A DNA stretch of 63,057 nt from a virus (taxonomy: Duplodnaviria; Heunggongvirae; Uroviricota; Caudoviricetes), in IMG/VR virus record IMGVR_UViG_3300014205_000184, positions 67,162 through 130,218 of that record; one strand, given 5' to 3'. Both the position numbers and the translations under genes were made by a program. Numbering within the stretch: position 1 is the first letter of the stretch; each line of letters opens with the position of its first letter. Below the pieces are notes generated by a model. That model was not told the origin of the DNA. It saw only the letters and a list, made by a program, of their open reading frames with translations, and did no database searches. Below are positions 15,561 to 53,230 of this stretch, in pieces.

Positions 15561-15562
15561 TT

Positions 15563-16602: not shown

Positions 16603-16622
16603 TTTTTTATCTCCTTAATACA

Positions 16623-16650
16623 CCGACGAGAGGATTATTCCTCTCGTCGG
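16623..16650 (-). terminator. Perfect 12-bp hairpin after the tail tube gene (terminator or stability element)
   Basis: CCGACGAGAGGA-ttat-TCCTCTCGTCGG; no strong U-tract follows. Confidence 0.55.
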
Positions 16651-16662
16651 TTGCAATCATTC

Positions 16663-17472: not shown

Positions 17473-17525
17473 TTGTGCTCACCTCACTATTTGTTTTTAT
17501 TATATTTTAAATTTTAACAACCTAT

Positions 17526-19429: not shown

Positions 19430-19430
19430 A

Positions 19431-39229: not shown

Positions 39230-39433
39230 TTATTTTTTAATATTTTCATCACTCACATCAACAATCTCGTCCGGCTTGAATGAAGGTTGTAATGAAATAT
39301 GTATAAATTTTTTATTCTGTACTTTTATAATTATCTGCCCATTATCCATCCCGAACATATCCACTAACTTCTGTATATATACTTTAGGATTAATTCCAAC
39401 TCTATACTGAACTAATTTAATCATATTCTCCAT
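39230..39433 (-). CDS. Small hypothetical protein
   Basis: 67-aa ORF coupled to the upstream gene. Confidence 0.5.
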   Translation of the reverse strand: MENMIKLVQYRVGINPKVYIQKLVDMFGMDNGQIIIKVQNKKFIHISLQPSFKPDEIVDVSDENIKK

Positions 39434-40262
39434 TCAATAGTTTGTATTTTTCCAACAGTTCATTATAATTTATTCTTTTTTTTAATATATTTTCACCTTT
39501 CAAGCGTTTTACGTAATATCCAGCATTACGCATCATTGAACTTTGCTGATTATCTTTTTCTTTCGCTCCAGGTTTATTATGCCAATACGCCCCATCGCAT
39601 TCTATAATTAAATTATATTTTGTAATATAAAAATCAGCTGGATGATTTTTAATACGGTAAGGATGTTTAAATTTTATTTTTCTCTTTAATAATTCTTTCT
39701 TTACTATTAATTCTATATCTGTATCAAATAATCTTTGTCTTCTATTTTTATTTAATAAATAGCAAAATGTACACCTCTTAGCTGTATATGATTTTAATTT
39801 CTTTCCGCAACAAACACAATAATATTTTCTGAGAGTTCTACCGTCTTTATACGCCGGGTTATTTTTTGGATTTTTTAAACGCTCCTTTTGGCTAATACTC
39901 ATTTTTTTTCTAGTTTTTAATGAACGTTTCTTACCATAACCTGGGTGATTCTTGCCTTTTTTTGCTAAACTTAATTTTTTTCTATATTCTAATGAATATC
40001 GTTTACCATAATTTGGATTTTTTTTACCCAACTTTGATAAACTTAATTTTTCTCTATGCTTAAGTGAAAGTTTTTTACCTTTATGAAATAAACCTATTTT
40101 TTTTCTAGTTTTTAATGTATGTTTTTTACCATACATTGGGTGTTTTTCAATATTTCTTAACCTATATTTTTGACTACACGACCTACATCTCTTATTTTTT
40201 TTAAAGTAAGCATTTTGATTTAATAATTTTTTACAATCTAAACAGTAAACTAATTTAACCAC
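39417..40262 (-). CDS. Homing endonuclease: NUMOD3 repeats + DUF559/Vsr-like nuclease domain
   Basis: Repeated GKKHTLKTRKKI-type motifs; ADFYITKYNLIIECDGAYWH. Confidence 0.82.
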   Translation of the reverse strand: MVKLVYCLDCKKLLNQNAYFKKNKRCRSCSQKYRLRNIEKHPMYGKKHTLKTRKKIGLFHKGKKLSLKHREKLSLSKLGKKNPNYGKRYSLEYRKKLSLAKKGKNHPGYGKKRSLKTRKKMSISQKERLKNPKNNPAYKDGRTLRKYYCVCCGKKLKSYTAKRCTFCYLLNKNRRQRLFDTDIELIVKKELLKRKIKFKHPYRIKNHPADFYITKYNLIIECDGAYWHNKPGAKEKDNQQSSMMRNAGYYVKRLKGENILKKRINYNELLEKYKLLNGEYD

Positions 40263-41198
40263 TGGCCCTCAATGATAATGATTTAGTTGCTATCTCTTTA
40301 CGCCACACACTGAACAAAAAGCATCGTTAACCCCATATGCCTTACCACATGATGGACAGTGTTTTTTACAATACTTAGATATTATGTTACTATCTGTAGT
40401 CCCAACCAACTGAAATCTGATAACAATTTCATTACTCTCTAACTCACCAATGTATGCAAAAGAAAACTTTTGAGATGAGTTACTACCTTTTATCGTAGCA
40501 CCTTTTTCTTCAACAAGATGATTGTCTTGTATAAAAGCATCATCATGCGTTTTAATCTCACCAGCACCTGCTATTGATGTAGCGAATGATGTAAAATTAC
40601 TGTTACCGCTTGTGTTTAAAGTACCTGACGATAGCCCCTTAGAAACACTATTACAGAAAACAGTACCCCCAAATAATGGATAATCATAATCCACATAGAA
40701 TGGACCATTATATCTTATCGGCCAATGTGGACGATGATGATATATGTGTTCTTCATGTACTATAACGTTATTCACTACTGGTTTAACTAACTGAAATCTA
40801 ACTTCTATACATCCTTTTTCTGAGTTACCTTTGTCGGAAACTTTGTTATTTGATAAAGGAACAAACTTAAATCTTCGACCTCTCTCAACGTCATCTATAT
40901 ATCTTTCTAGATTAACACTTGAGTTTGCGTCGATTATAAGTCTCCCCTTCTCAGTAACTTCATCCCCATCAATGTACACACGTGCAACTGCTTTCCTATC
41001 ATTCCGATTCTTCAATAATAAACTATATTCTGAATTAAATGGGATAACAACCTTCCCATCTTTTTCTTCTACGGTTCTATCATTGATTTTTACGTTCACT
41101 ACCATCCCTTGACTATACATATCTTCCCCCTATAAGTACCGACGTTGCCAGATACTATTTTTATTTTTATCAACGTCTCTCGCTAGATTGAGGGCCAG
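40262..41198. repeat. Perfect 12-bp inverted repeat flanking ORF 40290..41120
   Basis: CTGGCCCTCAAT at 40262-40273 and ATTGAGGGCCAG at 41187-41198. Confidence 0.8.
40290..41120 (-). CDS. Hypothetical protein with C-terminal zinc ribbon
   Basis: 276 aa; HEEHIYHHRPH low-complexity linker; CPSCGK...FCSVCG. Confidence 0.7.
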   Translation of the reverse strand: MYSQGMVVNVKINDRTVEEKDGKVVIPFNSEYSLLLKNRNDRKAVARVYIDGDEVTEKGRLIIDANSSVNLERYIDDVERGRRFKFVPLSNNKVSDKGNSEKGCIEVRFQLVKPVVNNVIVHEEHIYHHRPHWPIRYNGPFYVDYDYPLFGGTVFCNSVSKGLSSGTLNTSGNSNFTSFATSIAGAGEIKTHDDAFIQDNHLVEEKGATIKGSNSSQKFSFAYIGELESNEIVIRFQLVGTTDSNIISKYCKKHCPSCGKAYGVNDAFCSVCGVKR

Positions 41199-41201: not shown

Positions 41202-42191
41202 TTAAAAATCTTGCTGATGATATAATATTACTTGGCTACCTAATTCATCAAATTTAACCGGAACAAACAATACTTTTTTCATAGCTCTTTTAACTTCATC
41301 TTGATATTCTTCTGGGACATATAGTATGAAAAAACCTCCATTTCCAGCTCCGCAGAGTTTGCCTCCCAAGGCTCCATTTCGCATAGCACAATCATACATA
41401 TCATCTATTTTTTTATTAGATATTACATTTGAAAAACTTTTTTTAATTTTCCATGATTCATTTATTAGTTTACCAAAATTATCTATATTATTAGACTTTA
41501 ATATTTCAATTGAGTCATCCACTAATGAATACATCTCACGTAATTCTTTTCTTTTACTCGTTGGTAATTTGGGGACATATTCCCCAGCTACTTTTGATGA
41601 TGTTCTTGAAAAACCCGTAAAAAACATCATGATATTGTTTTGAAGTTTTAATACTTTTTCTTTTGGTAAAATAATTTTATCAACCACATAACTATCACCA
41701 TTAAAACTAATCTTATTAAGTCCTCCAAAAGATGCGGCTATTTGGTCTTGTGAACCGACATTTTCTTTAACTAGTTTTTGCTCAACATAAATAGCATCGT
41801 TAGAAAGTATTCTTTTGGTTACCATCTTACCTTGTAAGGCGTATAACGCATTTATAAAACCAACTGTAAAAGATGAGCTTGAACCTACACCCGAGCAAGC
41901 TGGTATGTCTGCTGTATGTACTAACTCTACTCCCTTACTAATATTCATATAATTCAAACATTCTCGTACGGTAGGATGATTTATTTCTGAAATATATTTC
42001 TTTCTCTCCGTACGTCTATATCTTACGTTATATTTATATTTAAAAAATGGGGGTAGATACCTACACATAATATAACAATATTTGTTGATAGTGGTGCTGA
42101 GAACAGCCCCAGGATTATCTTTATACCATAAAGGATAATCTGTACCTCCCCCAAAAAAACTCACTCTAAATGGTGTACGTGTAATAATCAT
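41202..42191 (-). CDS. hddA: GHMP kinase, D-glycero-alpha-D-manno-heptose-7-phosphate kinase type
   Basis: MIITRTPFRVSFFGGGTDYP; ADIPACSGVGSSSSF; VGSQDQ; GGKLCGAGNGGF. Confidence 0.88.
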   Translation of the reverse strand: MIITRTPFRVSFFGGGTDYPLWYKDNPGAVLSTTINKYCYIMCRYLPPFFKYKYNVRYRRTERKKYISEINHPTVRECLNYMNISKGVELVHTADIPACSGVGSSSSFTVGFINALYALQGKMVTKRILSNDAIYVEQKLVKENVGSQDQIAASFGGLNKISFNGDSYVVDKIILPKEKVLKLQNNIMMFFTGFSRTSSKVAGEYVPKLPTSKRKELREMYSLVDDSIEILKSNNIDNFGKLINESWKIKKSFSNVISNKKIDDMYDCAMRNGALGGKLCGAGNGGFFILYVPEEYQDEVKRAMKKVLFVPVKFDELGSQVILYHQQDF

Positions 42192-42749
42192 CTATTTTCC
42201 TATATGTTTTATATCACCCAACTCATCTCTTAATGATATTATTGGATTGTTTATAGGCCATCTAATATTAAAATTACTATCATTCCATTTTATCGTAAAT
42301 TGATTTTTTGGATTATAATAATTTGTTTGTTTGTAATGAAATATTGATTTATCTGATAAGCAAATATGTCCATTCCCAAAACCTGGAGGTATTAATACTT
42401 GATATTTATTTACATCTGACAACGTAAACCCCTGCCATTTACCAAATTGATTATTCTCTATCGTATTATTTGAATCACCTATGCGATAATCAATAACTAC
42501 AAGATAAAACTTACCATATAAACAAGATATTAACTTCCATGTCATACTGTCGCCGTGTATACCTTTAAGCACATGCTTTGTAGATACGGATATATCATCT
42601 TCTATGAAATTTTCATTAGTTAGCTCCGATAACTGCTCTTTATACTCTTTATCGTTATATATCTGTAGATACTCGCCTCTATAATCCTCAAAGCAAGTGG
42701 GTTTTATTAATTTAACTCCTGATAATGTAGTGTTTTCTATAGTAATCAT
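42192..42749 (-). CDS. dTDP-4-dehydrorhamnose 3,5-epimerase family (RmlC-like cupin)
   Basis: FEDYRG; STKHVLKGIH; VLIPPGFGNGH; IKWND...WPINNPIISLRD. Confidence 0.9.
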   Translation of the reverse strand: MITIENTTLSGVKLIKPTCFEDYRGEYLQIYNDKEYKEQLSELTNENFIEDDISVSTKHVLKGIHGDSMTWKLISCLYGKFYLVVIDYRIGDSNNTIENNQFGKWQGFTLSDVNKYQVLIPPGFGNGHICLSDKSIFHYKQTNYYNPKNQFTIKWNDSNFNIRWPINNPIISLRDELGDIKHIGK

Positions 42750-42769
42750 GTAGACCTCTATATTTATTT

Positions 42770-43777
42770 TTAAAATCGTTTCCCATTTTTAACTTCAATT
42801 CTACACCAATCTAGTAATTCTTTTAATGATTGTTTTAATGTTATTTTAGGTCTCCACTCAGGGCATACTTTCTTAAATTTATCAATATCAACAATCTGTA
42901 AATTTATATCTAATTTTCTCATTAGCGAATCATCAAGTTCTTTTTTTATCTTATCTTTCATTGGGCTTAACTCTATAAGATAATCTAGCATTTCTTCTAT
43001 CGTATAGACTTCCTCTCCACCGATATTATAGATTTCACCTATATTGCCATTTTTAATTAACATGTAATAAGCTTCAACGGCATCTCTAGCATCTGCAAAT
43101 GTTCTAACGGAGTTTAAATTCCCGTGTTTAACAGTTGGTTCTTGTAACGAAAGTTCTATCTTAGCTATTTGTTGAGCAAAATTAACTTCTGCTGACTTCA
43201 TTGTTCTACCAATAGAGAAATGTGTAAACATCCTAGTTATTATAACATTAAAATTATAATATTTACAGTAAAACTGCGCTGTCATATCAGCTCCAATTTT
43301 ACCTATTGCATATTGGTTTCCTGGTCTTATTTGATTATCTTCATTTATTGGTGTTTCATTTATATCAACTTTACCATAAACTTCACTCGATGAAACAACG
43401 TGTATTATAGGGTTATAGCTTTTATCAATATAATCTTTTACAATACGTATAGCTTCAAACAGGTTTACAGTACCTATTGTGTTTGTTTCTATGGTTATAA
43501 TTGGGGACACAAACCCAGAATTAACAAAACTTTCAGCGGCTAAATGACTAATAATATCTGGTTTATTATCAGCAATTACTCTTATTAAACTGCTTAAGTC
43601 TAATAAATCAGCTTGTACTATTTTTATCTTATCTTTTACGTGTTCAATTCTAGATGTATCTTCATTCCATCTTGTGGTAACTATTACATCTTCATTTTGC
43701 TTTAATAGGAAATTTATAAAATGAGACGCAACGAATCCACCGCCACCTGTTAATAACCACTTACTTTTCATGCTCAA
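42770..43777 (-). CDS. Second GDP-sugar 4,6-dehydratase/reductase (Gmd/Rmd-like)
   Basis: LLTGGGGFVAS; HLAAESFV; SSSEVYG; YAIGK; GNLNSVRTFADARDAV. Confidence 0.85.
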   Translation of the reverse strand: MSMKSKWLLTGGGGFVASHFINFLLKQNEDVIVTTRWNEDTSRIEHVKDKIKIVQADLLDLSSLIRVIADNKPDIISHLAAESFVNSGFVSPIITIETNTIGTVNLFEAIRIVKDYIDKSYNPIIHVVSSSEVYGKVDINETPINEDNQIRPGNQYAIGKIGADMTAQFYCKYYNFNVIITRMFTHFSIGRTMKSAEVNFAQQIAKIELSLQEPTVKHGNLNSVRTFADARDAVEAYYMLIKNGNIGEIYNIGGEEVYTIEEMLDYLIELSPMKDKIKKELDDSLMRKLDINLQIVDIDKFKKVCPEWRPKITLKQSLKELLDWCRIEVKNGKRF

Positions 43778-44672
43778 CCTCTATATTATCAAGTTCACAT
43801 TTAAAATGTAAATGAAATAAATGAGAATTTGTCACAACAACTTTATCTCTTTTTAAATTATTATCAAACTCTAAATCTGGGGCACCTATTGTAGTTAGTA
43901 AAGAATCAGAAGCTTGTTTAAATATAGTACTATTTGCTATCATGGCATTGTAATATCCATAATCTCTAACGCCACATGGTTCTATAATTGTTTTTTTGTC
44001 GAACTGATTACAAATATTACTCCAATCATCCAATTCTTTTTCTGTAATATAATCTTTATCTATTGGGAATTTCATTGTTAGGGAATGACAGTTTAACTTT
44101 CTCCATACATTCCATATAGAATCTAACGTTGTTTCTTCATTGTAACTTAAATCTTTATATTTTTCACCACAATTAGGCATATGAGCATTTGTCATTTTCT
44201 GTCTAGGTTCTACCCATATAGGAGTATATACCTTATCATCACCATGAATAGAACGAGCATCGCTAACATATTTATCCCAATTCTTGCCACAAACTAAGTC
44301 TATGTTATAATTATAGCACATAATAGTATCATCTGGGATTAAAAGTAACGCTTCTCTCATAGAATGAAACAATGATTGTTTCTTACTTGATTTAAAGAAC
44401 TCTATATTAAATTTATTTCTTATTTTATCTTTATAGACTTCACTAAATATAACATCTGGTTCATAAACTAATATGATTTTATGTTTAAAATAAGAGTTTT
44501 TATTTAAAGATGATAAACATCTAATAATAAGGTCTTGCCCCATTATATTTTCATTTGTTTCACCTGAGATATCCCCATTATGCCATAAACCATTATCATC
44601 TTGCGTCATTTGATACTGATTACCATAACCTGCTCTATTAGGTCTAAATGGTGTTAAAAGTGTTAAATTCAT
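43761..44672 (-). CDS. Putative GT-A glycosyltransferase
   Basis: LLTPFR...RCLSSLNKNS...YNIDLV...WDK...HLFH, a divergent GT2-like layout inside the sugar cluster. Confidence 0.5.
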   Translation of the reverse strand: MNLTLLTPFRPNRAGYGNQYQMTQDDNGLWHNGDISGETNENIMGQDLIIRCLSSLNKNSYFKHKIILVYEPDVIFSEVYKDKIRNKFNIEFFKSSKKQSLFHSMREALLLIPDDTIMCYNYNIDLVCGKNWDKYVSDARSIHGDDKVYTPIWVEPRQKMTNAHMPNCGEKYKDLSYNEETTLDSIWNVWRKLNCHSLTMKFPIDKDYITEKELDDWSNICNQFDKKTIIEPCGVRDYGYYNAMIANSTIFKQASDSLLTTIGAPDLEFDNNLKRDKVVVTNSHLFHLHFKCELDNIEVEHEK

Positions 44673-44673
44673 A

Positions 44674-45600
44674 TTATTCTTCCTTTAAAAACTCTTTTAT
44701 TCTAATAAAAGAACTTTTGTTGTCTATTCCGTAATACCCCCATATCACATCTTCTCTTCCCCCGAACTTATGACAGTACCCATGATTATTTTTAATTCCT
44801 ATTCTTAATAATTTTTGAGATATATCATTATCGTGTAAAAATTCACTAATGTGCCCACCTAAACCACCATTTAATACATGTTCTTCCATTGTTATAATTC
44901 TACCACTATCACTTAATACATCTAGCATTTTTTTATTATTAAATGGTAGTGTGTGCACGTCGATTACACCTAAATCGTCTATTCTAGACGCTATATCTAA
45001 AGCTGTATGCGTCATAATACCTGTTGATAATATATTACGACTACCTTTTTTAAAGATATGAAAACCATCATCAAGATTAATATGTTTTTCATATATATCA
45101 TCTGTTTTGCTTCTATCCAATCTTATATAATTAGCTTGTTTATAACTATACGACATTAACGCAATTTTTTCAGCCATAATTGAATCCGTACAATTATTAA
45201 TAATTATATTGGGTATAGCTCGTATCAAAGATACATCTTCAAATATATTATGAGTTGGACCGGCATCATCATAACTAAAACCACATCCAACTCCTACAAT
45301 TGTCAATGGAATACCCATTATTCCACAATTAATTCTTATCTGCTCTAAACATCTAGTTGATACAAAAGATGAAATCCCATAAACATATACTTTCTTACCC
45401 TGTAATGCCATACCGGAAGCTATACTGATACCATTTTGCTCTGCTATCCCAACATTAATATATTGCGACGATAGGTCTTTTCTGAACTTATCTAATGATG
45501 GAGCTGACATGTCAATACTGACAAGATAAACATTTTTGTCATTCTTAGCTAAATCATAGAGTACATCAAAAAATGCGTCTCTTTGTTGTAGATTACTCAT
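44674..45600 (-). CDS. Transketolase, C-terminal (pyrimidine-binding) subunit
   Basis: NVGIAEQNGISIASGMAL; RCLEQIR; AGPTH; TMEEHVLNGGLG. Confidence 0.92.
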   Translation of the reverse strand: MSNLQQRDAFFDVLYDLAKNDKNVYLVSIDMSAPSLDKFRKDLSSQYINVGIAEQNGISIASGMALQGKKVYVYGISSFVSTRCLEQIRINCGIMGIPLTIVGVGCGFSYDDAGPTHNIFEDVSLIRAIPNIIINNCTDSIMAEKIALMSYSYKQANYIRLDRSKTDDIYEKHINLDDGFHIFKKGSRNILSTGIMTHTALDIASRIDDLGVIDVHTLPFNNKKMLDVLSDSGRIITMEEHVLNGGLGGHISEFLHDNDISQKLLRIGIKNNHGYCHKFGGREDVIWGYYGIDNKSSFIRIKEFLKEE

Positions 45601-46417
45601 ACGCTATCTCCTCTCTAAATTTAACAATCTCATCATTATTTGTTGGGGTTCTTGAATGCCACAACGGTTGATAGTAAATACTTGGTATACCATATCCTTT
45701 TATTGTATCTGCTATAATAATCTTTGGTTTAGATGAACTTCTAGCATGAGATGATTGTAGTTCTCTTATAAGTTCGCTCATATTATGCCCATCAATTCTA
45801 CACGTTTCCCACCCAAAAGATTTCCATTTGTCTATAAGTGGTTCAATGGCGAGACATTCTTCAGTAAAATCTGTAGCACAAAGTTTATTTCTATCCATAA
45901 TAACTACAAGATTGTTAAGATTATTATGGCTTGCAAACATAGCCGCTTCCCATATCGACCCCTCATAGCACTCACCATCACCAATTAATGTAAATATAGT
46001 ATTGCATAGTTTATCTTTTTTATTAGCTAATGCCATACCTACTGCGACATTTAACCCGTGCCCTAATGAACCTGATGTTATTTCTATACCCGGAACACCT
46101 CTCTGAGGATGTGTACCCATAATTCCACCAAGTTGTGCAACATGCAGTAATTGAAGTTTATCAAAAAACCCACAATCAGCAAGCACTGAATATAAAGCAA
46201 TACTAGCTTGTCCTTTGCTCAATATAAACTTATCTCTTTTATCCCAATCTGGATTAGATGAGTCATATTTTAATATCCCGCTATAATATAATGCTACAAG
46301 TATATCGACACATGATAATGATGACGTTAAGTGCCCAGTTTTAGCATTAACACACACATCAAACACCCATCTTCGTATTTGTTTTGATTTTAAATACAAA
46401 TCATTTATATTAATCAC
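45593..46417 (-). CDS. Transketolase, N-terminal (ThDP-binding) subunit
   Basis: GHLTSSLS; RDKFILSKG; SGSLGHGL; GDGECYEGSIWEA (ThDP motif). Confidence 0.93.
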   Translation of the reverse strand: MININDLYLKSKQIRRWVFDVCVNAKTGHLTSSLSCVDILVALYYSGILKYDSSNPDWDKRDKFILSKGQASIALYSVLADCGFFDKLQLLHVAQLGGIMGTHPQRGVPGIEITSGSLGHGLNVAVGMALANKKDKLCNTIFTLIGDGECYEGSIWEAAMFASHNNLNNLVVIMDRNKLCATDFTEECLAIEPLIDKWKSFGWETCRIDGHNMSELIRELQSSHARSSSKPKIIIADTIKGYGIPSIYYQPLWHSRTPTNNDEIVKFREEIAYE

Positions 46418-47864
46418 TAAATAATCTCCTTTTAATACTTACTTTAAGCATATCTTTTATATCATTCTTTACTTTTTCACCAAATTTATAACTCATTAAA
46501 TCTAAATATTTCTTATTTGAACAATATGTTTTAAAAGCATTATCCCTAAATTTTAGTACTTGCCATGATTCAAGATATTTAGTCGGTAGTGGTTTTGTAT
46601 CGTAAGAATATTGAGAGTATCCATTCCATGATTCTGGTAATAATTCTTGTTTGTCACTATAATTGTTATATAATTTAGAACCAGGATAAGCCATAGTACA
46701 GAAAAAGTTTGGAGATTCACAATTGAGTTCAACGGCTAACTCAAATGTATCTGTCATTGTCTCAATATTATCATCTGGAAGACCAAACATAAAATTACCA
46801 CTTATGTTTATACCATTATCTTTTATCATTTTTACAATAGATACAATATTTTTATTTATTACTTTATTAACTCCTCTAAGTGATGTTTTACTTGCGGATT
46901 CTATGCCTAACCCTAACCAATTAAACCCAGCTCTTTTCATTTTACTTAATAATTTTTCATTAATAGTATCTACTCTAGCATATGCAAAAATATTTAAATC
47001 GTAACGTCTATTTATTATAAAATCACATATTTTTTCAACTCTTGAAATATCAAAAATAAATAATTCATCATCAAATCTTATATGTTGTACATGATATTTA
47101 TTTACTAACTCATCTATCCAATCAAACACTATGTCTAGTGACCAATACCTTATGCCCGGCTTACCAAAGATAGAATTAATACAACAAAAATCACAGCTAT
47201 ATGGGCATCCTAGAGATGTATTTAATGTTACATATGGAGAGCGTGTTGTATAGCCATATGTGTGAAAATCATGAGCCCTATAATTACTAAAATCTGGGAG
47301 TAAATCAAACGCATAATTATCAAGCGTTATGTCTAAATGTTTAATAATTGGAGATGGTTTATTTAATAGTATTGTTTCATCTTTTATATACCATATACCA
47401 GATATATTCTTAATTTCTTTATCACTATTTAAATAATGTAAGATATCAACTACTTGATATGCACCTTCTCCTACTATGACATAATCTATAGCTTCATCTC
47501 TAAGTGTTCTCTCTGGTAACGCTGATGGGTGAGTTCCACCCATAGCTATTGGTATATTTTTATTGTAGTTCTTTATATCTCTAGCTATAGACGATGCGCT
47601 ATCCATAGTTTGAGTAGACGCAGATGGGTGATGACCATACACCATTATTACTACCAAGTTAGGTGAGTATTTATTTATTTCACGTGTTGCATCGAACCCA
47701 TCTACGTTTACATCATGTATCGCTACAGAAAAGTCATTCTTTCTTACATAATTTGCTAATAATGACGTCCATGTTGGCGGAGCTATAGCTGTATATTTAT
47801 TTGATAATTCCTGATATGTTTTTTTATGATTACCAGGATGAATAAATAAAACGTCAACGCTCAT
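46410..47864 (-). CDS. Cobalamin-binding radical SAM enzyme (class B methylase type)
   Basis: N-terminal B12-binding domain (AMGGTHPSALP, DYVIVGEG); SLGCPYSCDFC; FDDELF; GIESAS; FMFGLP. Confidence 0.9.
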   Translation of the reverse strand: MSVDVLFIHPGNHKKTYQELSNKYTAIAPPTWTSLLANYVRKNDFSVAIHDVNVDGFDATREINKYSPNLVVIMVYGHHPSASTQTMDSASSIARDIKNYNKNIPIAMGGTHPSALPERTLRDEAIDYVIVGEGAYQVVDILHYLNSDKEIKNISGIWYIKDETILLNKPSPIIKHLDITLDNYAFDLLPDFSNYRAHDFHTYGYTTRSPYVTLNTSLGCPYSCDFCCINSIFGKPGIRYWSLDIVFDWIDELVNKYHVQHIRFDDELFIFDISRVEKICDFIINRRYDLNIFAYARVDTINEKLLSKMKRAGFNWLGLGIESASKTSLRGVNKVINKNIVSIVKMIKDNGINISGNFMFGLPDDNIETMTDTFELAVELNCESPNFFCTMAYPGSKLYNNYSDKQELLPESWNGYSQYSYDTKPLPTKYLESWQVLKFRDNAFKTYCSNKKYLDLMSYKFGEKVKNDIKDMLKVSIKRRLFSD

Positions 47865-47866
47865 AA

Positions 47867-48466
47867 TTATATCCTTTTGAACATTATTAATTTATCAATC
47901 TGTTCTGTAACTTCAATTTTTTGCCAGTTACTATTATTTAACAATAGCTTATCTACTGCGCTCTTAACTTGCAACATATCATAATCATCAACAAGTAAAT
48001 AACCACCGACTTTAACCCATTTAGACATATTTGTTATATCGCTCGTCACGTATGGTTCGTCGTGATTCCCGTCAACGATACACAAGTCTAGTTCTATATC
48101 CCAATTAGGTGCTGTTTTTAATGAATCACCATCGTGTATCGTTACTCTATTCTCGGTATTTGTTGATTTTATAGCATGTACAAAACCCTCTCGAATATTA
48201 GCAAACCCGGGAGACGCCGGTCCGCCTAACCAATTATCCAGAGCATGAAAATGACAATTTGGTAATGCATGAAGAATTATGAGAGCATCTCCACCTTGAA
48301 AAATACCAATTTCAGCTACGCTATATTTTTCTTCGGGGTTAAAATGAGTACATAAAAGCTGAATGAGACGGTCTTTATCCGTATCCGATATCCAACCGCC
48401 AAATTTATATAAATCAATACGGTTATCTCCACTCTTCTTTAATTCTTCATTAAATCTTTGTGACAT
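47867..48466 (-). CDS. Class I methyltransferase (Methyltransf_24-like)
   Basis: AEIGIFQG; DLCIVDGNH; GGYLLVDDY. Confidence 0.85.
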   Translation of the reverse strand: MSQRFNEELKKSGDNRIDLYKFGGWISDTDKDRLIQLLCTHFNPEEKYSVAEIGIFQGGDALIILHALPNCHFHALDNWLGGPASPGFANIREGFVHAIKSTNTENRVTIHDGDSLKTAPNWDIELDLCIVDGNHDEPYVTSDITNMSKWVKVGGYLLVDDYDMLQVKSAVDKLLLNNSNWQKIEVTEQIDKLIMFKRI

Positions 48467-49079
48467 CTTTACCCCACTTTAATTGTTCTGTTTTTTGTAA
48501 TACGAAATAATATGAATTCTGCTCAACGTCACTACCTTCTTTTAATATTTTTCTAAACCCAGATTTATGAAAATAAAACTTCCATTGTGTTGGTGAGAAA
48601 GGGTGATGATGATAATCATTCGGGTAGTCAGTCCCGTCAATACTATATGGTATATGAACAACCATATATCCCATTGACTTAAGTACTCGATTGCACTCAT
48701 AAAGTACTATCAATGGTGACAATGAGTGTTCAAATGTTTGTCTTGAAACTATAGCATCAAATATATTATCGTCAAATGGTAAATCATGCATATCTGCTAC
48801 AATAGCCTTCAACCCGTGTTTTAGACATTCCTGTTGCTCACCGGTGCTATATGTTAAACCTATAGTTTCATGCCCAGATTCTTCTAAAAGATGCAACAAA
48901 TACCCATCTGCACAACCTATCTCAAGAACTTTATTAGCTTCTTGAGGAACTAATGATGCTACAAATGGGAAATTACCATGACCCCAAACTCTAAACCCTT
49001 CACCACCAAAACTATCCCATTTATCAATTTCTAAATATTTTTTCCATTTATTTAAAAACTCTTTTCTTATAATAAACAT
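48450..49079 (-). CDS. Class I methyltransferase (Methyltransf_11-like)
   Basis: VLEIGCADG; ADMHDLPFDDNIFDAI; FEHS; RVLKSMG. Confidence 0.9.
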   Translation of the reverse strand: MFIIRKEFLNKWKKYLEIDKWDSFGGEGFRVWGHGNFPFVASLVPQEANKVLEIGCADGYLLHLLEESGHETIGLTYSTGEQQECLKHGLKAIVADMHDLPFDDNIFDAIVSRQTFEHSLSPLIVLYECNRVLKSMGYMVVHIPYSIDGTDYPNDYHHHPFSPTQWKFYFHKSGFRKILKEGSDVEQNSYYFVLQKTEQLKWGKDVTKI

Positions 49080-49690
49080 TAATATCCTCTAGTATAATAC
49101 ATCGGCCAGAACGTGTGGTCTGTTCTCTGCGTAAAACCTGGAAATTTTACTATTTGTTCAACACACGCTTTCTCAACACCCGTTATCCAGTCATCTAAAA
49201 GTAGAATACACTTATCTTTGGCGTGTTGTAACCACAGCATATCTATTTTAACATCTTCATATGTGTGCGAACCATCTATATAAAGCATATCAAATTTTTC
49301 ACCATTCCATTTAGATAGTATTTCTTCACTTGAACCCGGAAGACATGTTATGTTATTTTCTAACCCTAATCTTTTAATGTTTGATAAAGTAGCATCTAAT
49401 GTACATGGCAATACGCATTCATACTTATTATATCTTTCTGGGCGTTGCTCATCTTTAACAAAACATGGGTCTACACAATATATTTTTACGTTTTTATCTT
49501 TTAATTTTAACCCAAACACACACGCTGACCCACCATAATGCGACCCTATCTCTACTATAACTGCATTATCAGGTAATTTTTCACAAATCTTAATTAACGG
49601 AGAAACATAATCATCTTTTCTACCAGCAGTACCTGGGATTTTACCTACTATCTCAAAAATTTCATCTAAATTCATTATTACTTCCCCCAA
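49079..49690 (-). CDS. Class I methyltransferase (Methyltransf_24-like)
   Basis: IVEIGSHYGGS; FDMLYIDGSHTYEDV; LLDDW. Confidence 0.88.
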   Translation of the reverse strand: MGEVIMNLDEIFEIVGKIPGTAGRKDDYVSPLIKICEKLPDNAVIVEIGSHYGGSACVFGLKLKDKNVKIYCVDPCFVKDEQRPERYNKYECVLPCTLDATLSNIKRLGLENNITCLPGSSEEILSKWNGEKFDMLYIDGSHTYEDVKIDMLWLQHAKDKCILLLDDWITGVEKACVEQIVKFPGFTQRTDHTFWPMYYTRGY

Positions 49691-50310
49691 TCTTCATATT
49701 TCCCATTATAATCATAGCAACATAACTGATGAATGCTTATTAATTTAGGAATTAAATTGTTATCTATATCTTGAAAACTATCTTCAATATTCTCTACTAC
49801 GCTATGATTTACACAATATAACCCACAATTAACCCATCGTTCTCTTGTAAATCCTAATACTTTATTATATTTTTTTACTATAACACCACGTTCTTTTTCT
49901 GTTTCTGCTATATTTTTTACAACCATAGTCATCATACTATCGTTTTGTAAATGTGATATGTAGAAATTCTGAAGATTAATATCTAGCAAATTAACGTCGT
50001 TATGCACAACAATAAATGGATTTGAAAGACTTGAACAAAATTTCTTAATAGCATACGCATTCCCATTTCTAATATCTTCAACTAATAGATTGTACCCTAA
50101 GTCTTTAAAATATTCAATTTCACTACTATGAATATTTATATTTATCTTAAAAACTCCCACATTATCCCCATGCATAAAAGGATACAGCACAGTGTTAACT
50201 GCAATATCATTGTTATATTGCATAAGTGCTTTTGGAGTATTTCCTATTTTACTCTTGACTCTGCTCCCGCACCCACCAGATAATAAGAGTACATCTATTT
50301 TTTTATCCAT
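49678..50310 (-). CDS. Sugar-phosphate nucleotidyltransferase (HddC/GMP-like)
   Basis: LLSGGCGSRV...PKAL; VHNDV; VNCGLY. Confidence 0.82.
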   Translation of the reverse strand: MDKKIDVLLLSGGCGSRVKSKIGNTPKALMQYNNDIAVNTVLYPFMHGDNVGVFKININIHSSEIEYFKDLGYNLLVEDIRNGNAYAIKKFCSSLSNPFIVVHNDVNLLDINLQNFYISHLQNDSMMTMVVKNIAETEKERGVIVKKYNKVLGFTRERWVNCGLYCVNHSVVENIEDSFQDIDNNLIPKLISIHQLCCYDYNGKYEDWGK

Positions 50311-50488
50311 TTTTTCTCGTGAAAAAGTTTTTAATCTTTGTAATAAATGATACTTTTTCTAAAAAATCCCCATCACACGGTTTAGTATCTGATAAAATAT
50401 TGCATAATTTTCTATCCGTACCAACAGTAACCCCTTTGTATAAAAATTCACATTTTTTATTGTTTGGTTTTTTACAATAATACGCCAT
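50303..50488 (-). CDS. Small Cys-containing hypothetical protein
   Basis: 61-aa ORF coupled to its neighbours. Confidence 0.5.
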   Translation of the reverse strand: MAYYCKKPNNKKCEFLYKGVTVGTDRKLCNILSDTKPCDGDFLEKVSFITKIKNFFTRKNG

Positions 50489-50489
50489 A

Positions 50490-51059
50490 CTAATTCCCCC
50501 CTATTACGTTAGCACTCATTAAATCTGCCATATGAAGCAAAACAGCTAAGGCATGCATTTTACCACCATCTTTAGTCCAACCACCATGATGATAACTTAC
50601 GGAATTTAATTGCTTATCAGATAATGATATTCCATGCTTGGCGCATACATTTACGACTCTTGCACTATCATGTGAATCAACTTTATTATAATTATACTCA
50701 AACTCATAGACATTTGCTTGCCAATTTTCAGAATCATATTTTTTATTATCTACATACTTAGTTAACTTTTCAAGGTCATGTATAAAACACACAAAAACAA
50801 CATCAGACTCTGTTATTAATTTCTTTCTAAATTCTTGTTCAAAAATCTTAAATATTTTTAAACCACACTCAATAACTTCTAACGTATGCTTCTCAAGACC
50901 ACCTTGATAATTATGATGAAACTTAATACTAGCAGGCCAGTGCTGAAAATCTTCCGCTATTTCTGAATATAACCCTAAAACTTTATCTTTAAGATTTTCA
51001 TTCAGATATTTTGTTAAATAATCTTTAACATTATTTGCCACAACCACCGCCTTTCCCAC
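50490..51059 (-). CDS. HD-domain phosphohydrolase (YhaM-like)
   Basis: PASIKFHHNYQGGLEKHTLEV; FIHDLEK; HHGG; HMAD. Confidence 0.85.
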   Translation of the reverse strand: MGKAVVVANNVKDYLTKYLNENLKDKVLGLYSEIAEDFQHWPASIKFHHNYQGGLEKHTLEVIECGLKIFKIFEQEFRKKLITESDVVFVCFIHDLEKLTKYVDNKKYDSENWQANVYEFEYNYNKVDSHDSARVVNVCAKHGISLSDKQLNSVSYHHGGWTKDGGKMHALAVLLHMADLMSANVIGGN

Positions 51060-51304: not shown

Positions 51305-51567
51305 TTTCTCTCCTTTTTTTTAACTAAGATTTTTCTAAAACCTGGTAATATAAAAAAATTATCATTATACTCTACTGGATAATTCATACTATCATCAACA
51401 AATCCTATATCTCCTATATCAAAATCATCAACAGATACTGCTACGGGGGTATTTGACTTATCATTAAATATCTTATCGCTTTTAAATATATATCTTTTTG
51501 CCATTAATGTCAATGATTGTTTTTTATTAGTTTTCATTATTATCACTGCTCCCTTGAAATACTTCAA
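51277..51567 (-). CDS. Hypothetical protein (true start probably the internal MKTNKK)
   Basis: ORF overlapping the TerL stop codon. Confidence 0.45.
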   Translation of the reverse strand: MKYFKGAVIIMKTNKKQSLTLMAKRYIFKSDKIFNDKSNTPVAVSVDDFDIGDIGFVDDSMNYPVEYNDNFFILPGFRKILVKKKERKCKKLKKKE

Positions 51568-53230
51568 AACCTAATTCAACGGTTTCAGCATGAGCCATCT
51601 CATCAGGTTCGTCATCAACTTCTTCATTTTTCATAATAACATACTTCTCATAATACGCTGCCGCAAAACATCTAAAAGCCTCTGGAATATGTACCCAATC
51701 AGGTGTTATAATCTCAGTTCTACCGCTTTGTGAGCGTTTTTGTTTTTCAGCATTAAATTGTAGTAATAAATCCTCAGAAAAGTACATATAAAATTCTTGA
51801 TTTGAGAACATCTGTCTTAAAAGAGTCGTTGTTTTATCTTTAATTTTTTCTTTTATAGCAACTTCTTCACCTTTTTTTTCATCCATCTTCTTTCCAACTT
51901 CAAAGTATTTCTGAAATTCCACCCACACAACTCGCTTGTCATAGTGTTTATCTTTATACTCTTCACGTTTAGGGTTTTGTAAGCTACTCGCTACAGCTCT
52001 ACCATCAGCAGAAGAACAGTCTATTGGTATAATCATAGCATTAAAAAAATCAGCTATATAATCTATAATCTCAGTTTGATTGTCGGGTATCATTCTGTCA
52101 ATCAACTCTACGATATTATATAGATGCCACTTATGATTTATATGCATAAATGGTAATATAACTGTAGGTTCTGAATACCCAGCATCAATAGCTAATATAA
52201 CTTCCGTTACTCCTTTTGGTAATTTCATATTCTGCAAAAAAGCACTGGGTGAATTTACTAAATTATAATCTTTAGCTGATATCGTAAAGTACTCAATATG
52301 ATTCTTTAATATACCGCTTCCGGCTTTTATTTCTTCTTTATCAATACACGCCCGCATAGCTTGTTCTGGCCACACCGACCACGCTGGTTCCCCCCAAAGT
52401 GCCAAAACTTGTTGTAAATAGTCATTCGCTGATTCACTGCCGAATGTCTGAATTAAATTAATTTTATCTTCTTGATTAAAATATGGCTCCATTAATCTAG
52501 CTACATGAAATCTTTTATTGTGGAATTTTTTAGATTTATTATCTAATTCATAATATGGAGTATCTAATCTTCCATCTGCACATCCGAAATATTTATCAAA
52601 ACTACCTTTGGGGTCTCGTGTTGACTGAAACTTTATCCATGCTTCTTTTGGGTATGTCTGCATTTCATCAATATATCTACGCACAGGGTGAGTCGATTGT
52701 ATCGAAACTGCGAGAGGGTCATCTCCAACACTTATACCCTTTAAATCATGCCCATTACGCAAATGTATAGAATAAAAAGGCGTACGAGTTATTGAATCTT
52801 TAGTGGTCTTATCGCCTCTGCCCTTTAAGAATTTTCTAAAATATGGAACTCTAATAAGATAAGAAATAACTTTTTCAAATCTATCTTTAACATGCATTCT
52901 TCTGAATGTTGTTAATAGACTCTCTTCGTTATATATGAGTAATGCCTGTTGGAGCATTGTAAATTCTAAAACTATAGATTTACCGAATGAACGACCACCA
53001 ATAACAACACATTCTGGAACAATAGCATATTGATACTGATAATAACGTAGAAAAAATGGCTTTCTCCAGCATGTAGGCCCAAAAAAATTACAAAACTCCT
53101 TGGGGTGGTTCATCACCACGTAATAACATAATGCTTCACGAATTTCATCCGTTAATTTTTGCATATATTTTTTTAATTTTTTGTTTAAAATATTTTTTCC
53201 AATATTTTCTATTAAAGTTAGCTTTTGCAT
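51527..53230 (-). CDS. terL: Terminase large subunit (true start possibly 53164)
   Basis: Walker A IGGRSFGKS; Walker B-like RYIDEMQ; RNase H-like ILAIDAGYSEPTVI; position in the morphogenesis module. Confidence 0.85.
   Translation of the reverse strand: MQKLTLIENIGKNILNKKLKKYMQKLTDEIREALCYYVVMNHPKEFCNFFGPTCWRKPFFLRYYQYQYAIVPECVVIGGRSFGKSIVLEFTMLQQALLIYNEESLLTTFRRMHVKDRFEKVISYLIRVPYFRKFLKGRGDKTTKDSITRTPFYSIHLRNGHDLKGISVGDDPLAVSIQSTHPVRRYIDEMQTYPKEAWIKFQSTRDPKGSFDKYFGCADGRLDTPYYELDNKSKKFHNKRFHVARLMEPYFNQEDKINLIQTFGSESANDYLQQVLALWGEPAWSVWPEQAMRACIDKEEIKAGSGILKNHIEYFTISAKDYNLVNSPSAFLQNMKLPKGVTEVILAIDAGYSEPTVILPFMHINHKWHLYNIVELIDRMIPDNQTEIIDYIADFFNAMIIPIDCSSADGRAVASSLQNPKREEYKDKHYDKRVVWVEFQKYFEVGKKMDEKKGEEVAIKEKIKDKTTTLLRQMFSNQEFYMYFSEDLLLQFNAEKQKRSQSGRTEIITPDWVHIPEAFRCFAAAYYEKYVIMKNEEVDDEPDEMAHAETVELGFEVFQGSSDNNEN

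What the first reader, a model, noticed from the sequence alone, without database searches (positions are those of the whole stretch)
41202..50310. Pathway to a methylated, possibly branched (deoxy)heptose
Seen: HddA-type kinase, nucleotidyltransferase, GDP-sugar dehydratase, RmlC-like epimerase, two-subunit transketolase, class B (B12) radical SAM, three methyltransferases and a putative GT in one run. Established: HddA/HddC give GDP-D,D-heptose, and dehydratase plus epimerase give 6-deoxyheptoses. Inference: the transketolase supplies sedoheptulose-7-P or adds a branch, and the B12 enzyme C-methylates. GmhA and GmhB are not visible here, so they are host-supplied, elsewhere in the genome, or replaced (the adjacent HD protein is a candidate phosphatase).
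Basis: partly seen in the sequence, partly recalled or inferred. Interest (0 to 1): 0.7.

Follow-up and report, generated by a model that had tools for sequence, protein, structure and literature searches.

The report
Phage-borne tailored-heptose sugar cassette
An uncultured 130-kb phage carries an 11-gene operon that most likely turns a host seven-carbon sugar into an activated, deoxygenated, carbon-branched and methylated sugar plus the enzyme to attach it; this uncharacterised pathway is widespread in bacteria but very rare in viruses.

Summary
Window 41202-50310 (minus strand) holds eleven tightly packed genes:
- an HddC-like nucleotidyltransferase
- three SAM methyltransferases
- a B12-radical SAM enzyme
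- a split transketolase-like pair
- a GT-A-fold glycosyltransferase
- a 4,6-dehydratase
- an RmlC epimerase
- an HddA-like kinase

**Heptose:** supported. The kinase, transferase and dehydratase each match solved heptose enzymes best. Their bacterial orthologues sit in a conserved cassette that in several phyla includes gmhA and/or gmhB.

**Transketolase:** "supplies sedoheptulose-7-P" is unlikely. This TK family has lost the equivalents of E. coli His461 and Asp469. It nearly always sits beside the radical SAM gene, and E1 alpha/beta pairs take its place in 20 of 73 loci. It more likely adds a two-carbon unit to the 4-keto sugar.

**GmhA/GmhB:** absent from the whole phage record, so they must come from the host. 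Nothing supports the HD protein as a phosphatase substitute.

**C-methylation by the B12 enzyme:** plausible but untested.

This scan has already reported the same bacterial cassette at least 35 times on other DNA. New here are the phage carrier and a different tailoring set (dehydratase/RmlC, three methyltransferases, its own glycosyltransferase). The product, acceptor and host are unknown.

The parts
49678..50310 (-). Sugar-1-phosphate nucleotidyltransferase (210 aa), HddC-like and short at the C-terminus; probably forms the GDP-sugar
   Evidence: GGCGSR at residues 12-17. Invariant NT residues in the alignment with 23 cassette HddC-like enzymes. NCBIfam HddC E 1e-7. PDB HddC 6JQ8/5XHW are the top hits. 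AF2 pLDDT 88.4; Foldseek hits GDP-mannose pyrophosphorylases and HddC at TM about 0.8.
49079..49690 (-). SAM methyltransferase, Methyltransf_24 type (203 aa)
   Evidence: PF13578, 72.6 bits. 59% identical copy in the relative phage L082.
48450..49079 (-). SAM methyltransferase, Methyltransf_11 type (209 aa)
   Evidence: PF08241, 62.6 bits. 68% identical in L082.
47867..48466 (-). SAM methyltransferase, Methyltransf_24 type (199 aa)
   Evidence: PF13578, 55.4 bits. 50% identical in L082.
46410..47864 (-). Class B (B12-binding) radical SAM enzyme (484 aa), the signature gene of the cassette
   Evidence: PF02310, 65.4 bits, and PF04055, 57.9 bits. C220/C224/C227 are invariant. Thousands of homologues; the 120 closest listed are 52-67% identical. 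Orthologues found in 80 genome loci.
45593..46417 (-). Transketolase-like ThDP-binding subunit (274 aa), with Gln70 in place of the donor-binding His66 of E. coli TK
   Evidence: PF00456, 138 bits. Aligned to split TK 6YAK: 'LSKGHAS' in the reference, 'LSKGQAS' here. GDG...NN ThDP motif at 146-170.
44674..45600 (-). Transketolase-like Pyr/C-terminal subunit (308 aa), lacking the His461 and Asp469 equivalents
   Evidence: PF02779 and PF02780. Aligned to 6YAJ: THAGLTVGEDGASH in the reference, VGCGFSYDDAGPTH here. The same substitutions occur in all 40 aligned cassette-linked homologues.
43761..44672 (-). GT-A-fold glycosyltransferase (303 aa), a family found so far almost only in phage or short metagenomic contigs
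   Evidence: No Pfam, NCBIfam or PHROG hit. AF2 pLDDT 83.8, pTM 0.86. Foldseek hits ppGalNAc-T, K4CP and SpsA at E about 1e-5. ESM Atlas neighbours are GT2 at TM about 0.6. D73 and D125 are invariant.
42770..43777 (-). NDP-heptose 4,6-dehydratase-like SDR (335 aa)
   Evidence: [quoted passage not shown] SSSEVYG at 129 and YxxxK at 156.
42192..42749 (-). RmlC-type 4-keto-sugar 3- and/or 5-epimerase (185 aa)
   Evidence: PF00908, 143.6 bits. PDB hits to dTDP RmlC and to C. jejuni GDP-4-keto-heptose epimerases are equal, at about 109 bits.
41202..42191 (-). HddA-like GHMP sugar-phosphate kinase (329 aa)
   Evidence: GHMP N and C domains. Best NCBIfam hit is HddA, 133 bits. PDB WcbL/HddA E about 1e-32. 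44-56% identical to the kinases of most bacterial cassettes, including those flanked by gmhA/gmhB.
50303..51059 (-). 61-aa ORF and HD-domain protein (189 aa), upstream in the same operon-like run; role in the sugar pathway not shown
   Evidence: Weak TraI_2 and Cas3_HD hits. phrog_5889 and a phosphohydrolase PHROG. 81% identical in L082 at the same position. Not a recurrent member of the bacterial cassettes.

Best explanation
This is a phage copy of a widespread, biochemically uncharacterised bacterial cassette for tailoring a nucleotide-activated heptose.

Proposed route:
1. Host GmhA makes D-glycero-D-manno-heptose 7-phosphate.
2. The phage HddA-like kinase phosphorylates C1.
3. Host GmhB removes the 7-phosphate.
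4. The phage HddC-like transferase makes the (probably GDP-) heptose.
5. The DmhA-like dehydratase gives the 6-deoxy-4-keto-heptose, and the RmlC-type enzyme epimerises C3 and/or C5.
6. No C4 reductase follows. Instead the transketolase-like ThDP enzyme attacks the 4-ketone and leaves a two-carbon branch on a tertiary alcohol.
7. The B12-radical SAM enzyme performs a radical step, most simply a C-methylation.
8. The three SAM methyltransferases add further methyl groups.
9. The GT-A enzyme transfers the product to an acceptor, probably a virion protein or a surface glycan.

Shown by sequence and structure comparison: the gene identities, the heptose affinity of steps 2, 4 and 5, the altered TK active site, and the GT-A fold. 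Inferred: the order of steps, the branch chemistry, the radical SAM reaction, the nucleotide, the methylation sites and the acceptor.
For: Gene content and packing.

Heptose affinity:
- Kinase best hits are WcbL/HddA and NCBIfam HddA.
- Transferase best hits are HddC, with an HddC/GMPP fold.
- The dehydratase scores 244 bits to 7US5 over its full length, while the phage holds a separate true GDP-mannose dehydratase (382 bits to TIGR01472).

Comparative evidence:
- 73 bacterial or archaeal loci carry the rSAM orthologue. A TK pair is present in 40, an E1 alpha/beta pair in 20, either in 58. The rSAM lies directly next to a ThDP subunit gene in 40. The kinase is present in 38 and the transferase in 31.
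- The bacterial transferase scores 244 bits to HddC. Its SDR partners match 6VO6 (380 bits) and GDP-fucose synthase / C. jejuni C4 reductases (about 300 bits).
- gmhA and gmhB lie inside the cassette in L057, as gmhA-NT-gmhB-kinase. One or the other is present in L023, L025, L064, L076 and L077.

TK-like enzyme: Gly for His461 and Ser/Ala for Asp469 across the family, and Gln for His66 in the phage subgroup.

Precedent: split-gene TKs and E1 alpha/beta enzymes have been proposed or shown to add C2 branches to keto sugars (PMC12247030).

No C4 reductase in the cassette: the phage has only three SDRs.

Conservation: a second phage (L082) keeps 10 of the 11 genes at 32-68% identity. Identical DNA occurs in a second habitat.
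Against: - No enzyme of this cassette family has been characterised, so every catalytic step rests on homology.
- The kinase and transferase score far below the NCBIfam equivalog cut-offs (133 of 600 bits; 31.7 of 300 bits).
- The phage has no gmhA or gmhB. Three of four Patescibacteria genomes with the cassette show no GmhA-like gene, though these bins are small and may be incomplete.
- The relative phage L082 lacks the dehydratase yet keeps RmlC and the TK pair. The 4-ketone can therefore arise otherwise, or the TK acceptor is not the dehydratase product.
- The Arg358 and Arg520 equivalents of TK are kept (R7, R163), so a phosphorylated acceptor is not excluded.
- B12-radical SAM enzymes also catalyse reactions other than methylation; the best family hits (HpnJ, BchE) are not methylases.
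- The acceptor of the GT is unknown.
Confidence: 0.55

Rival explanations
1. The split transketolase is a metabolic booster. It raises the supply of sedoheptulose-7-phosphate for heptose synthesis during infection and takes no part in tailoring.
For: The subunits are clearly of the TK family. The ThDP motif, Glu411, His26, His100, His261, His473, Arg358 and Arg520 equivalents are kept. Phages are known to carry pentose-phosphate auxiliary genes (own knowledge).
Against: The His461 and Asp469 equivalents are replaced in the phage and in all 40 aligned cassette-linked homologues, and His66 is Gln in the phage subgroup. In 20 loci the pair is replaced at the same position by E1 alpha/beta, which cannot make a ketose phosphate. 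The pair is usually adjacent to the rSAM gene. Bacteria that carry the cassette should already have a housekeeping TK (not checked here).
Confidence: 0.07
2. The sugar is not a heptose. The kinase and transferase salvage a hexose or 6-deoxyhexose (mannose- or fucose-like) into a GDP-sugar, which is then dehydrated, branched and methylated.
For: Kinase and transferase scores are far below the HddA/HddC equivalog cut-offs. The second-best kinase family is fucokinase. The transferase model fits GDP-mannose pyrophosphorylases as well as HddC. There is no gmhA or gmhB in the phage, and 3 of 4 Patescibacteria genomes with the cassette lack a GmhA hit.
Against: All three diagnostic enzymes hit heptose enzymes first. 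gmhA and gmhB are embedded between the orthologous transferase and kinase genes in several phyla. The phage already has a separate GDP-mannose 4,6-dehydratase cassette.
Confidence: 0.15
3. The activated sugar is used to hypermodify phage DNA, as with glucosyl- or arabinosyl-hydroxymethylcytosine, rather than a protein or glycan.
For: Phages do encode sugar-nucleotide supply for DNA modification (own knowledge). An HD-domain protein lies upstream in the same run.
Against: No thymidylate-synthase-family hydroxymethylase is found anywhere in the phage. The cassette lies inside the virion gene block, directly upstream of the head genes. The GT is of GT-A type and resembles protein and polysaccharide transferases. 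The cassette is used in bacterial surface-glycan loci together with GT2 genes.
Confidence: 0.05
4. The heptose framework is the same but the chemistry differs. The B12-radical SAM enzyme is not a methylase: it performs a radical dehydration, rearrangement or ring contraction that creates the carbonyl used by the ThDP enzyme. Alternatively, the ThDP enzyme extends or cleaves the chain rather than branching C4.
For: The best family hits of the rSAM are HpnJ and BchE, not methylases, with a weaker AprD4 diol-dehydratase hit. The rSAM and ThDP genes are adjacent in 40 of 73 loci. The relative phage keeps the TK pair without the dehydratase and adds a second B12-rSAM.
Against: Most characterised class B enzymes are methylases (own knowledge). 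All family scores are far below their cut-offs, so they say little.
Confidence: 0.15

Closest known systems
Campylobacter jejuni capsular GDP-heptose synthesis and modification (GmhA, HddA, GmhB, HddC; GDP-heptose 4,6-dehydratase; C3/C5 epimerases; C4 reductases; Cj1427 C4-dehydrogenase; PLP C3-dehydratase) - PMC10680097
   Same: HddA-like kinase, HddC-like transferase, a dehydratase whose best solved relative is the C. jejuni enzyme 7US5, and an RmlC-type epimerase. The bacterial versions of the cassette add Cj1427-like, Fcl-like and DegT-type partners.
   Different: The phage has no GmhA, GmhB or C4 reductase. It adds a TK-like ThDP enzyme, a B12-radical SAM enzyme, three methyltransferases and a GT, none of which occur in the C. 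jejuni pathways. That paper does not mention transketolase.
ThDP-dependent sugar-branching enzymes: YerE (yersiniose), E1 alpha/beta-type alpha-KADH2 (aldgamycin, kibdelomycin) and the split-gene transketolases proposed for miharamycin/amipurimycin - PMC12247030
   Same: A two-subunit ThDP enzyme encoded beside enzymes that form NDP-4-keto-sugars. TK-type and E1-type pairs are interchangeable between loci. The split-gene TK architecture is shared.
   Different: The known cases are actinomycete antibiotic pathways or CDP-3,6-dideoxyhexoses. Here the scaffold is a heptose in surface-glycan or phage contexts, always coupled to a B12-radical SAM enzyme. The TK branching activity is unproven even in the reference cases.
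Canonical transketolase, including the split TK of Carboxydothermus hydrogenoformans (PDB 6YAJ/6YAK)
   Same: Fold, subunit split, ThDP/Mg motif, cofactor-activating Glu and most catalytic His residues.
   Different: Gln for His66, Gly for His461 and Ala for Asp469. Only 98 bits (C subunit) and 207 bits (N subunit) to the split TK.
Phage-encoded heptose-type kinases (Caulobacter phage Cr30 'D,D-heptose 7-phosphate kinase'; Synechococcus phage kinase plus nucleotidyltransferase pairs)
   Same: A phage-borne HddA-family kinase (phrog_34407).
   Different: Only 27-30% identity. No close TK-like gene (30% identity or less) and no close B12-rSAM (25% or less) was found in the phage collection.

Membership tests
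[quoted passage not shown] | Sedoheptulose-7-P isomerase GmhA present | tested here: not met
   No SIS_2, SIS or TIGR00441 match in the 130-kb phage record. tblastn with two GmhA proteins found nothing in the window. It must come from the host.
[quoted passage not shown] | HddA: GHMP kinase specific for heptose 7-phosphate | tested here: inconclusive
   Best NCBIfam and PDB hits are HddA/WcbL, but at 133 bits against a 600-bit cut-off. Orthologues lie next to gmhA/gmhB in bacteria. Substrate not testable here.
[quoted passage not shown] | GmhB heptose-1,7-bisphosphate phosphatase present | tested here: not met
   No TIGR00213 match in the phage. tblastn with three GmhB proteins found nothing in the window.
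[quoted passage not shown] | HddC guanylyltransferase | tested here: inconclusive
   Best hits are HddC, but at 31.7 bits against a 300-bit cut-off. Fold and invariant residues are met. Nucleotide specificity not testable.
GDP-6-deoxy-heptose modification (DmhA/DdahA dehydratase, C3/C5 epimerase, C4 reductase) | NDP-heptose 4,6-dehydratase | tested here: met
   244 bits over residues 3-333 to 7US5, with shared SSSEVYG and YxxxK motifs. Activity itself not tested.
GDP-6-deoxy-heptose modification (DmhA/DdahA dehydratase, C3/C5 epimerase, C4 reductase) | RmlC-fold C3/C5 epimerase | tested here: met
   PF00908, 143.6 bits. Scores equally to the C. jejuni heptose epimerases and to dTDP RmlC.
GDP-6-deoxy-heptose modification (DmhA/DdahA dehydratase, C3/C5 epimerase, C4 reductase) | Dedicated C4 reductase that finishes the sugar | tested here: not met
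   There is no second SDR in the cassette. The phage's only other SDRs are the GMD and a 331-aa SDR in the separate cassette at 23889-27517.
Canonical transketolase (EC 2.2.1.1) | ThDP/Mg motif and cofactor-activating Glu | tested here: met
   GDG...NN at tktN 146-170 and E54 in tktC 'IAEQN'.
Canonical transketolase (EC 2.2.1.1) | Substrate-binding His66, His461 and Asp469 (E. coli numbering; residue roles from my own knowledge) | tested here: not met
   Gln70, Gly105 and Ala113 in the alignments to 6YAK and 6YAJ. The changes are family-wide for the latter two.
Class B (cobalamin-dependent) radical SAM enzymes | N-terminal B12-binding domain plus a radical SAM core with CxxxCxxC | tested here: met
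   PF02310, 65.4 bits; PF04055, 57.9 bits; C220, C224 and C227 invariant in 21 sequences.
Class B (cobalamin-dependent) radical SAM enzymes | Methyl transfer to an unactivated carbon | not testable with these tools
   No subfamily model is reached. The best is HpnJ at 136.6 bits against a 577.6-bit cut-off.
ThDP-dependent NDP-keto-sugar branching enzymes | Encoded with NDP-4-keto-sugar-forming enzymes, and interchangeable with other C2-transferring ThDP enzymes | tested here: met
   TK pair in 40 loci, E1 alpha/beta pair in 20 and either in 58 of 73, beside Cj1427-like or dehydratase genes.
ThDP-dependent NDP-keto-sugar branching enzymes | Carboligation onto a sugar ketone to give a tertiary alcohol | not testable with these tools
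   Needs an enzyme assay. Not yet shown even for the reference split TKs.
GT-A glycosyltransferases | GT-A Rossmann-like fold with acidic metal/nucleotide-binding residues | tested here: met
   Model pLDDT 83.8. Foldseek probability 1.00 to GT27/GT2 enzymes at TMq about 0.48. D73 and D125 are invariant in 10 homologues. The DxD assignment itself is inferred.

The most novel reading that the evidence does not exclude
A bacteriophage builds an undescribed sugar for itself: a 6-deoxyheptose carrying a ThDP-installed two-carbon branch, a radical-SAM-installed methyl group and several O-methyl groups, in effect a nine-carbon-plus skeleton. It attaches this sugar to its own virion, for example to the cysteine-rich fibre tips next to its GT9-like gene. 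That would be the first viral use of transketolase-type sugar branching and of B12-radical SAM sugar tailoring. It would also give a compact 11-gene system for solving the chemistry of a cassette present in hundreds of uncultured bacteria.
Probability: 0.3. Interest if true: 0.8.

Novelty: new variant of a known kind. Interest (0 to 1): 0.6.

Why it matters
- The TK-like / B12-radical SAM heptose cassette occurs in many phyla of mostly uncultured bacteria and in a few archaeal bins: Planctomycetota including anammox bacteria, Nitrospirota, Omnitrophota, Verrucomicrobiota, Patescibacteria, Campylobacterota and others. I found no paper that describes it.
- The phage version is compact and self-contained, with its own glycosyltransferase. 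It depends only on host GmhA and GmhB, which makes it a convenient set for heterologous reconstitution.
- With the phage's second GDP-6-deoxyhexose cassette and three further glycosyltransferase-like genes, it suggests unusually elaborate phage-directed glycosylation. That bears on how phages shield or disguise their virions, or remodel host surfaces.
- It would also extend ThDP sugar branching beyond actinomycete antibiotics and CDP-dideoxyhexoses.

Tried and rejected
- **Megablast against the phage collection:** the 10-kb region gave no match.
- **Single-protein locus searches with the rSAM:** nothing in viral or genome contigs. The alignment-based search was needed.
- **The look-up of encoding contigs:** The short contigs that hold the closest rSAM and GT homologues (P0010-P0016, P0129-P0135) could not be inspected.
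- **Literature:** searches combining transketolase, radical SAM, GHMP and nucleotidyltransferase, and 'split transketolase', found no description of the cassette. A search for the PDB codes 6VO6 and 7US5 found nothing useful, so reading 6VO6 as Cj1427 rests on my memory.
- **Pfam and PHROGs** did not recognise the transferase or the GT.
- **The GT9-like protein at 467-1480** has no solved relative by sequence.
- **The GT-A alignment in viral contigs** found only the known relative and one distant homologue without the cassette.
- **Promoter and terminator scan:** not above chance.
- **Expression:** no RNA holder is listed among the public runs, so nothing can be said.
- **HD protein as a GmhB substitute:** rejected for lack of any support.
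- **DNA glycosylation:** considered unlikely.
- **Host inference from the rSAM tree:** failed. The two phage copies are sisters inside a mixed 27-row clade spanning several phyla.

Full report
**Setting.** The window is bases 67162-130218 of a 130,218-bp IMG/VR virus record with direct terminal repeats. GC is 30-37% and nearly all genes are on the minus strand. The finding lies inside the virion block. Head protease/capsid-like genes are at 35163-36473 and fibre genes lie further downstream. Homing endonucleases flank the region: NUMOD3/Vsr-like at 39417-40262 and HNH at 53145-53948.

**Observation.** Eleven minus-strand ORFs run from 50310 down to 41202. Neighbours overlap by up to 17 nt or are separated by at most 20 nt. 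Pfam and NCBIfam confirm these genes:
- GHMP kinase
- RmlC
- SDR dehydratase
- both transketolase halves
- the B12-binding/radical SAM enzyme (CxxxCxxC at 220-227, invariant in 21 homologues)
- three methyltransferases

Two genes needed more work.
- *The 210-aa protein at 49678-50310.* It has no Pfam hit, and family scans of the whole phage for NTP_transferase found nothing. However, it starts with GGCGSR. Its best NCBIfam and PDB hits are HddC. It aligns with 23 HddC-like enzymes from the bacterial cassettes with all nucleotide-binding residues invariant. Its model (pLDDT 88.4) superposes on GDP-mannose pyrophosphorylases and HddC at TM about 0.8.
- *The 303-aa protein at 43761-44672.* It has no family hit. 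It models confidently (pLDDT 83.8, pTM 0.86) as a GT-A glycosyltransferase. Foldseek gives probability 1.00 to polypeptide GalNAc-transferases, chondroitin polymerase and SpsA, and the ESM Atlas neighbours are GT2.

The stretch is not chimeric. A groundwater run from a different study holds identical contigs across it, including one that bridges the upstream boundary.

**Is it a heptose?** Each of the three diagnostic enzymes hits heptose enzymes first.
- Kinase: WcbL, HddA and a Bacteroides heptose kinase, E about 1e-32. The next hits are mevalonate kinases at 1e-13.
- Transferase: HddC.
[quoted passage not shown] This compares with 186 bits to an Rmd reductase and 93 bits or less to GDP-mannose dehydratases.

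The phage also has a separate, near-equivalog GDP-mannose 4,6-dehydratase at 23889-24896 (382.5 bits against a 415-bit cut-off). It therefore keeps two dehydratases of different types.

The strongest support is comparative. An alignment of rSAM homologues recovered 80 genome loci and 3 viral contigs. Mapping the cassette proteins and clustering the neighbouring ORFs shows a conserved set:
- kinase, 44-56% identical to the phage enzyme in most loci
- HddC-like transferase, 244 bits against a 300-bit cut-off
- DegT/RfbH-like PLP enzyme
- an SDR whose best solved relative is 6VO6 at 380 bits (C. jejuni Cj1427, from my memory)
- an Fcl-like SDR
- the rSAM
- a two-subunit ThDP enzyme

Using GmhA and GmhB proteins fetched from two of these genomes, I found gmhA inside the cassette in L057, L064 and L076. 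I found gmhB in L057, L023, L025 and L077. In Sulfurimonas L057 the order is gmhA, transferase, gmhB, kinase, which is a complete GDP-heptose module contiguous with the TK/rSAM genes.

The caveats are these:
- The kinase and transferase scores are far below the equivalog cut-offs.
- The phage itself has no gmhA, gmhB or SIS gene.
- Three of four small Patescibacteria bins with the cassette show no GmhA-like gene.

I put the heptose reading at about 0.7.

**What does the transketolase do?** I aligned the subunits to the solved split TK of Carboxydothermus.
- *Residues kept:* the phage N-subunit keeps the ThDP motif and the His26, His100 and His261 equivalents. The C-subunit keeps Arg358, Glu411, His473 and Arg520 (R7, E54, H117, R163).
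- *Residues changed:* Gln70 replaces His66. The reference has THAGLTVGEDGASH where the phage has VGCGFSYDDAGPTH, which means Gly105 for His461 and Ala113 for Asp469.
- *Family-wide pattern:* all 40 aligned cassette-linked TK-C homologues (39 bacterial or archaeal, 1 from a viral contig) share Gly at the His461 position and Ser/Ala at the Asp469 position. They fall into two subgroups, 'SKGQAS/RLDR' (the phage type) and 'SKGHGS/RFDGKP'.
- *Meaning:* from my own knowledge, in canonical TK His461 helps bind the substrate phosphate and Asp469 reads the 2-hydroxyl of the aldose acceptor. Their family-wide loss argues for a different acceptor.

Genomic context points the same way. Of 73 bacterial or archaeal loci, 40 have the TK pair, 20 have an E1 alpha / E1 beta pair in the same position, 58 have one or the other, and 2 have both. 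The rSAM gene is directly adjacent to a ThDP subunit gene in 40. An E1-type pyruvate decarboxylase cannot supply sedoheptulose-7-P, but it is the enzyme type known to put C2 branches on NDP-keto sugars. Split-gene TKs have been proposed for the same reaction in miharamycin and amipurimycin, though this is still unproven (PMC12247030).

The phage cassette has a dehydratase and an epimerase but no C4 reductase. The phage has only three SDRs in total. This fits a route in which the 4-ketone is consumed by carboligation rather than reduced. I therefore favour 'adds a branch' over 'supplies sedoheptulose-7-P' (about 0.07).

**The rest of the pathway.** The rSAM has no subfamily assignment. Its best hits are HpnJ at 136.6 bits and BchE at 120.8 bits, both far below their cut-offs. 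C-methylation is the default reading for class B enzymes, but a rearrangement or dehydration that prepares the ThDP substrate is not excluded. The three methyltransferases (two Methyltransf_24, one Methyltransf_11) are generic, and their sites of action are unknown. The HD protein upstream is 81% identical in the relative phage. It resembles nuclease/relaxase HD domains and is not a recurrent cassette member, so nothing supports it as a GmhB substitute.

**Phage relatives and origin.**
- One IMG/VR contig (L082, 105.5 kb) has the same block in the same place, from the HD protein to the 276-aa neighbour, at 32-81% protein identity.
- In L082 the methyltransferase and GT positions are rearranged and there is no dehydratase. 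Instead it has a fourth Methyltransf_24, an unknown 237-aa protein, a second and apparently split B12-rSAM, and an aldo-keto reductase.
- The two phage rSAMs are sisters (support 100) inside a mixed clade of Nitrospirota, Planctomycetota, Verrucomicrobiota and others. This suggests a single acquisition before the phages diverged, but it gives no host.
- Two further IMG/VR contigs (L083, L084) carry rSAM plus RmlC with a TK or E1 pair. I did not verify that they are phages.
- The deposited phage collection holds only distant HddA-like kinases (Cr30 and Synechococcus phages, 27-30% identity). It holds no close TK-like gene and no close rSAM relative.

**Target.** The target is unknown.
- The cassette sits in the virion block.
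- The phage has a second sugar cassette at 23889-30890: GMD, a UDP-glucose/GDP-mannose dehydrogenase-like protein, an SDR, a methyltransferase, a GT1-like gene and a GT2 gene.
- A GT9-like gene lies next to the fibre tip at 467-1480. Its Pfam hit is sub-threshold, and 26-32% of its ESM Atlas cluster neighbours carry PF01075.
I could not confirm this by sequence.
- No thymidylate-synthase-family gene is present, which argues weakly against DNA glycosylation.
- Virion glycosylation is my preferred guess, but it is inference.

**Relation to earlier scan notes.** The same bacterial cassette was reported at least 35 times in at least 32 other genomes, with the same reading: heptose tailoring, and a TK-like enzyme that modifies rather than supplies. 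I read those notes only after my own residue and neighbourhood analysis. They agree with it but are not independent evidence. None of the eight notes shown described a phage copy.

**Verdict.** This is a phage-borne variant of an uncharacterised but widespread heptose-tailoring cassette. Every catalytic claim beyond family or fold assignment is inference and needs biochemistry.

Noticed in passing
window 23889-30890 (minus strand): A second sugar cassette: a near-equivalog GDP-mannose 4,6-dehydratase (382.5 bits), a short UDP-glucose/GDP-mannose dehydrogenase-like protein (290 aa), an unknown 255-aa protein, a 331-aa SDR, a Methyltransf_11 protein, a GT1-like protein, an HNH endonuclease inserted between genes, and a GT2. 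The GMD and the SDR are conserved in the relative phage G010.
   Followed up: partly
window 467-1480 (minus strand): A GT9-like (heptosyltransferase family) protein next to the tail-fibre tip. The Pfam hit is only E 0.009 and there is no solved relative by sequence, but it belongs to large viral clusters in which 26-32% of members carry PF01075. It is a possible user of a phage-made heptose nucleotide.
   Followed up: partly
L082 13182-18237: In place of the dehydratase, the relative phage carries a fourth Methyltransf_24, an unknown 237-aa protein and a second B12-radical SAM gene that appears split (ORF 14431-15240 plus a further rSAM-like stretch at 15237-15593). After the kinase it has an aldo-keto reductase with a ParB_N-like tail.
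   Followed up: partly
L057 1609-4380; L023 4893-6518: Bacterial cassettes with gmhA and/or gmhB wedged between the HddC-like and HddA-like genes. Sulfurimonas has gmhA-NT-gmhB-kinase; a Lentisphaeria bin has NT-gmhB-kinase.
   Followed up: yes
L035, L044 (Deltaproteobacteria MAGs), about 1500-19900: Variants of the cassette with E1 alpha/beta instead of TK, a DJ-1/PfpI protein, a 570-aa SDR fusion and three consecutive B12-radical SAM genes. This suggests iterative radical chemistry on the same sugar.
   Followed up: no
window 40290-41120 (minus strand): A 276-aa protein with two internal repeats and a C-terminal zinc ribbon lies directly downstream of the kinase. It is 63% identical at the same position in L082. 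Its function is unknown, and no link to the sugar pathway is shown.
   Followed up: no
window 51485-51513 (minus strand): The best sigma-70-like match in the region (11 of 12) lies in the gap upstream of the small ORFs and the HD gene, making it a candidate start for the HD-to-kinase run. The scan as a whole is not above chance.
   Followed up: no
L083 and L084 (IMG/VR contigs): Two more 'viral' contigs carry rSAM plus RmlC with a TK pair (L083, which also has a 40%-identical dehydratase) or an E1 alpha/beta pair (L084). Whether they are phages or misclassified bacterial glycan islands was not checked.
   Followed up: no
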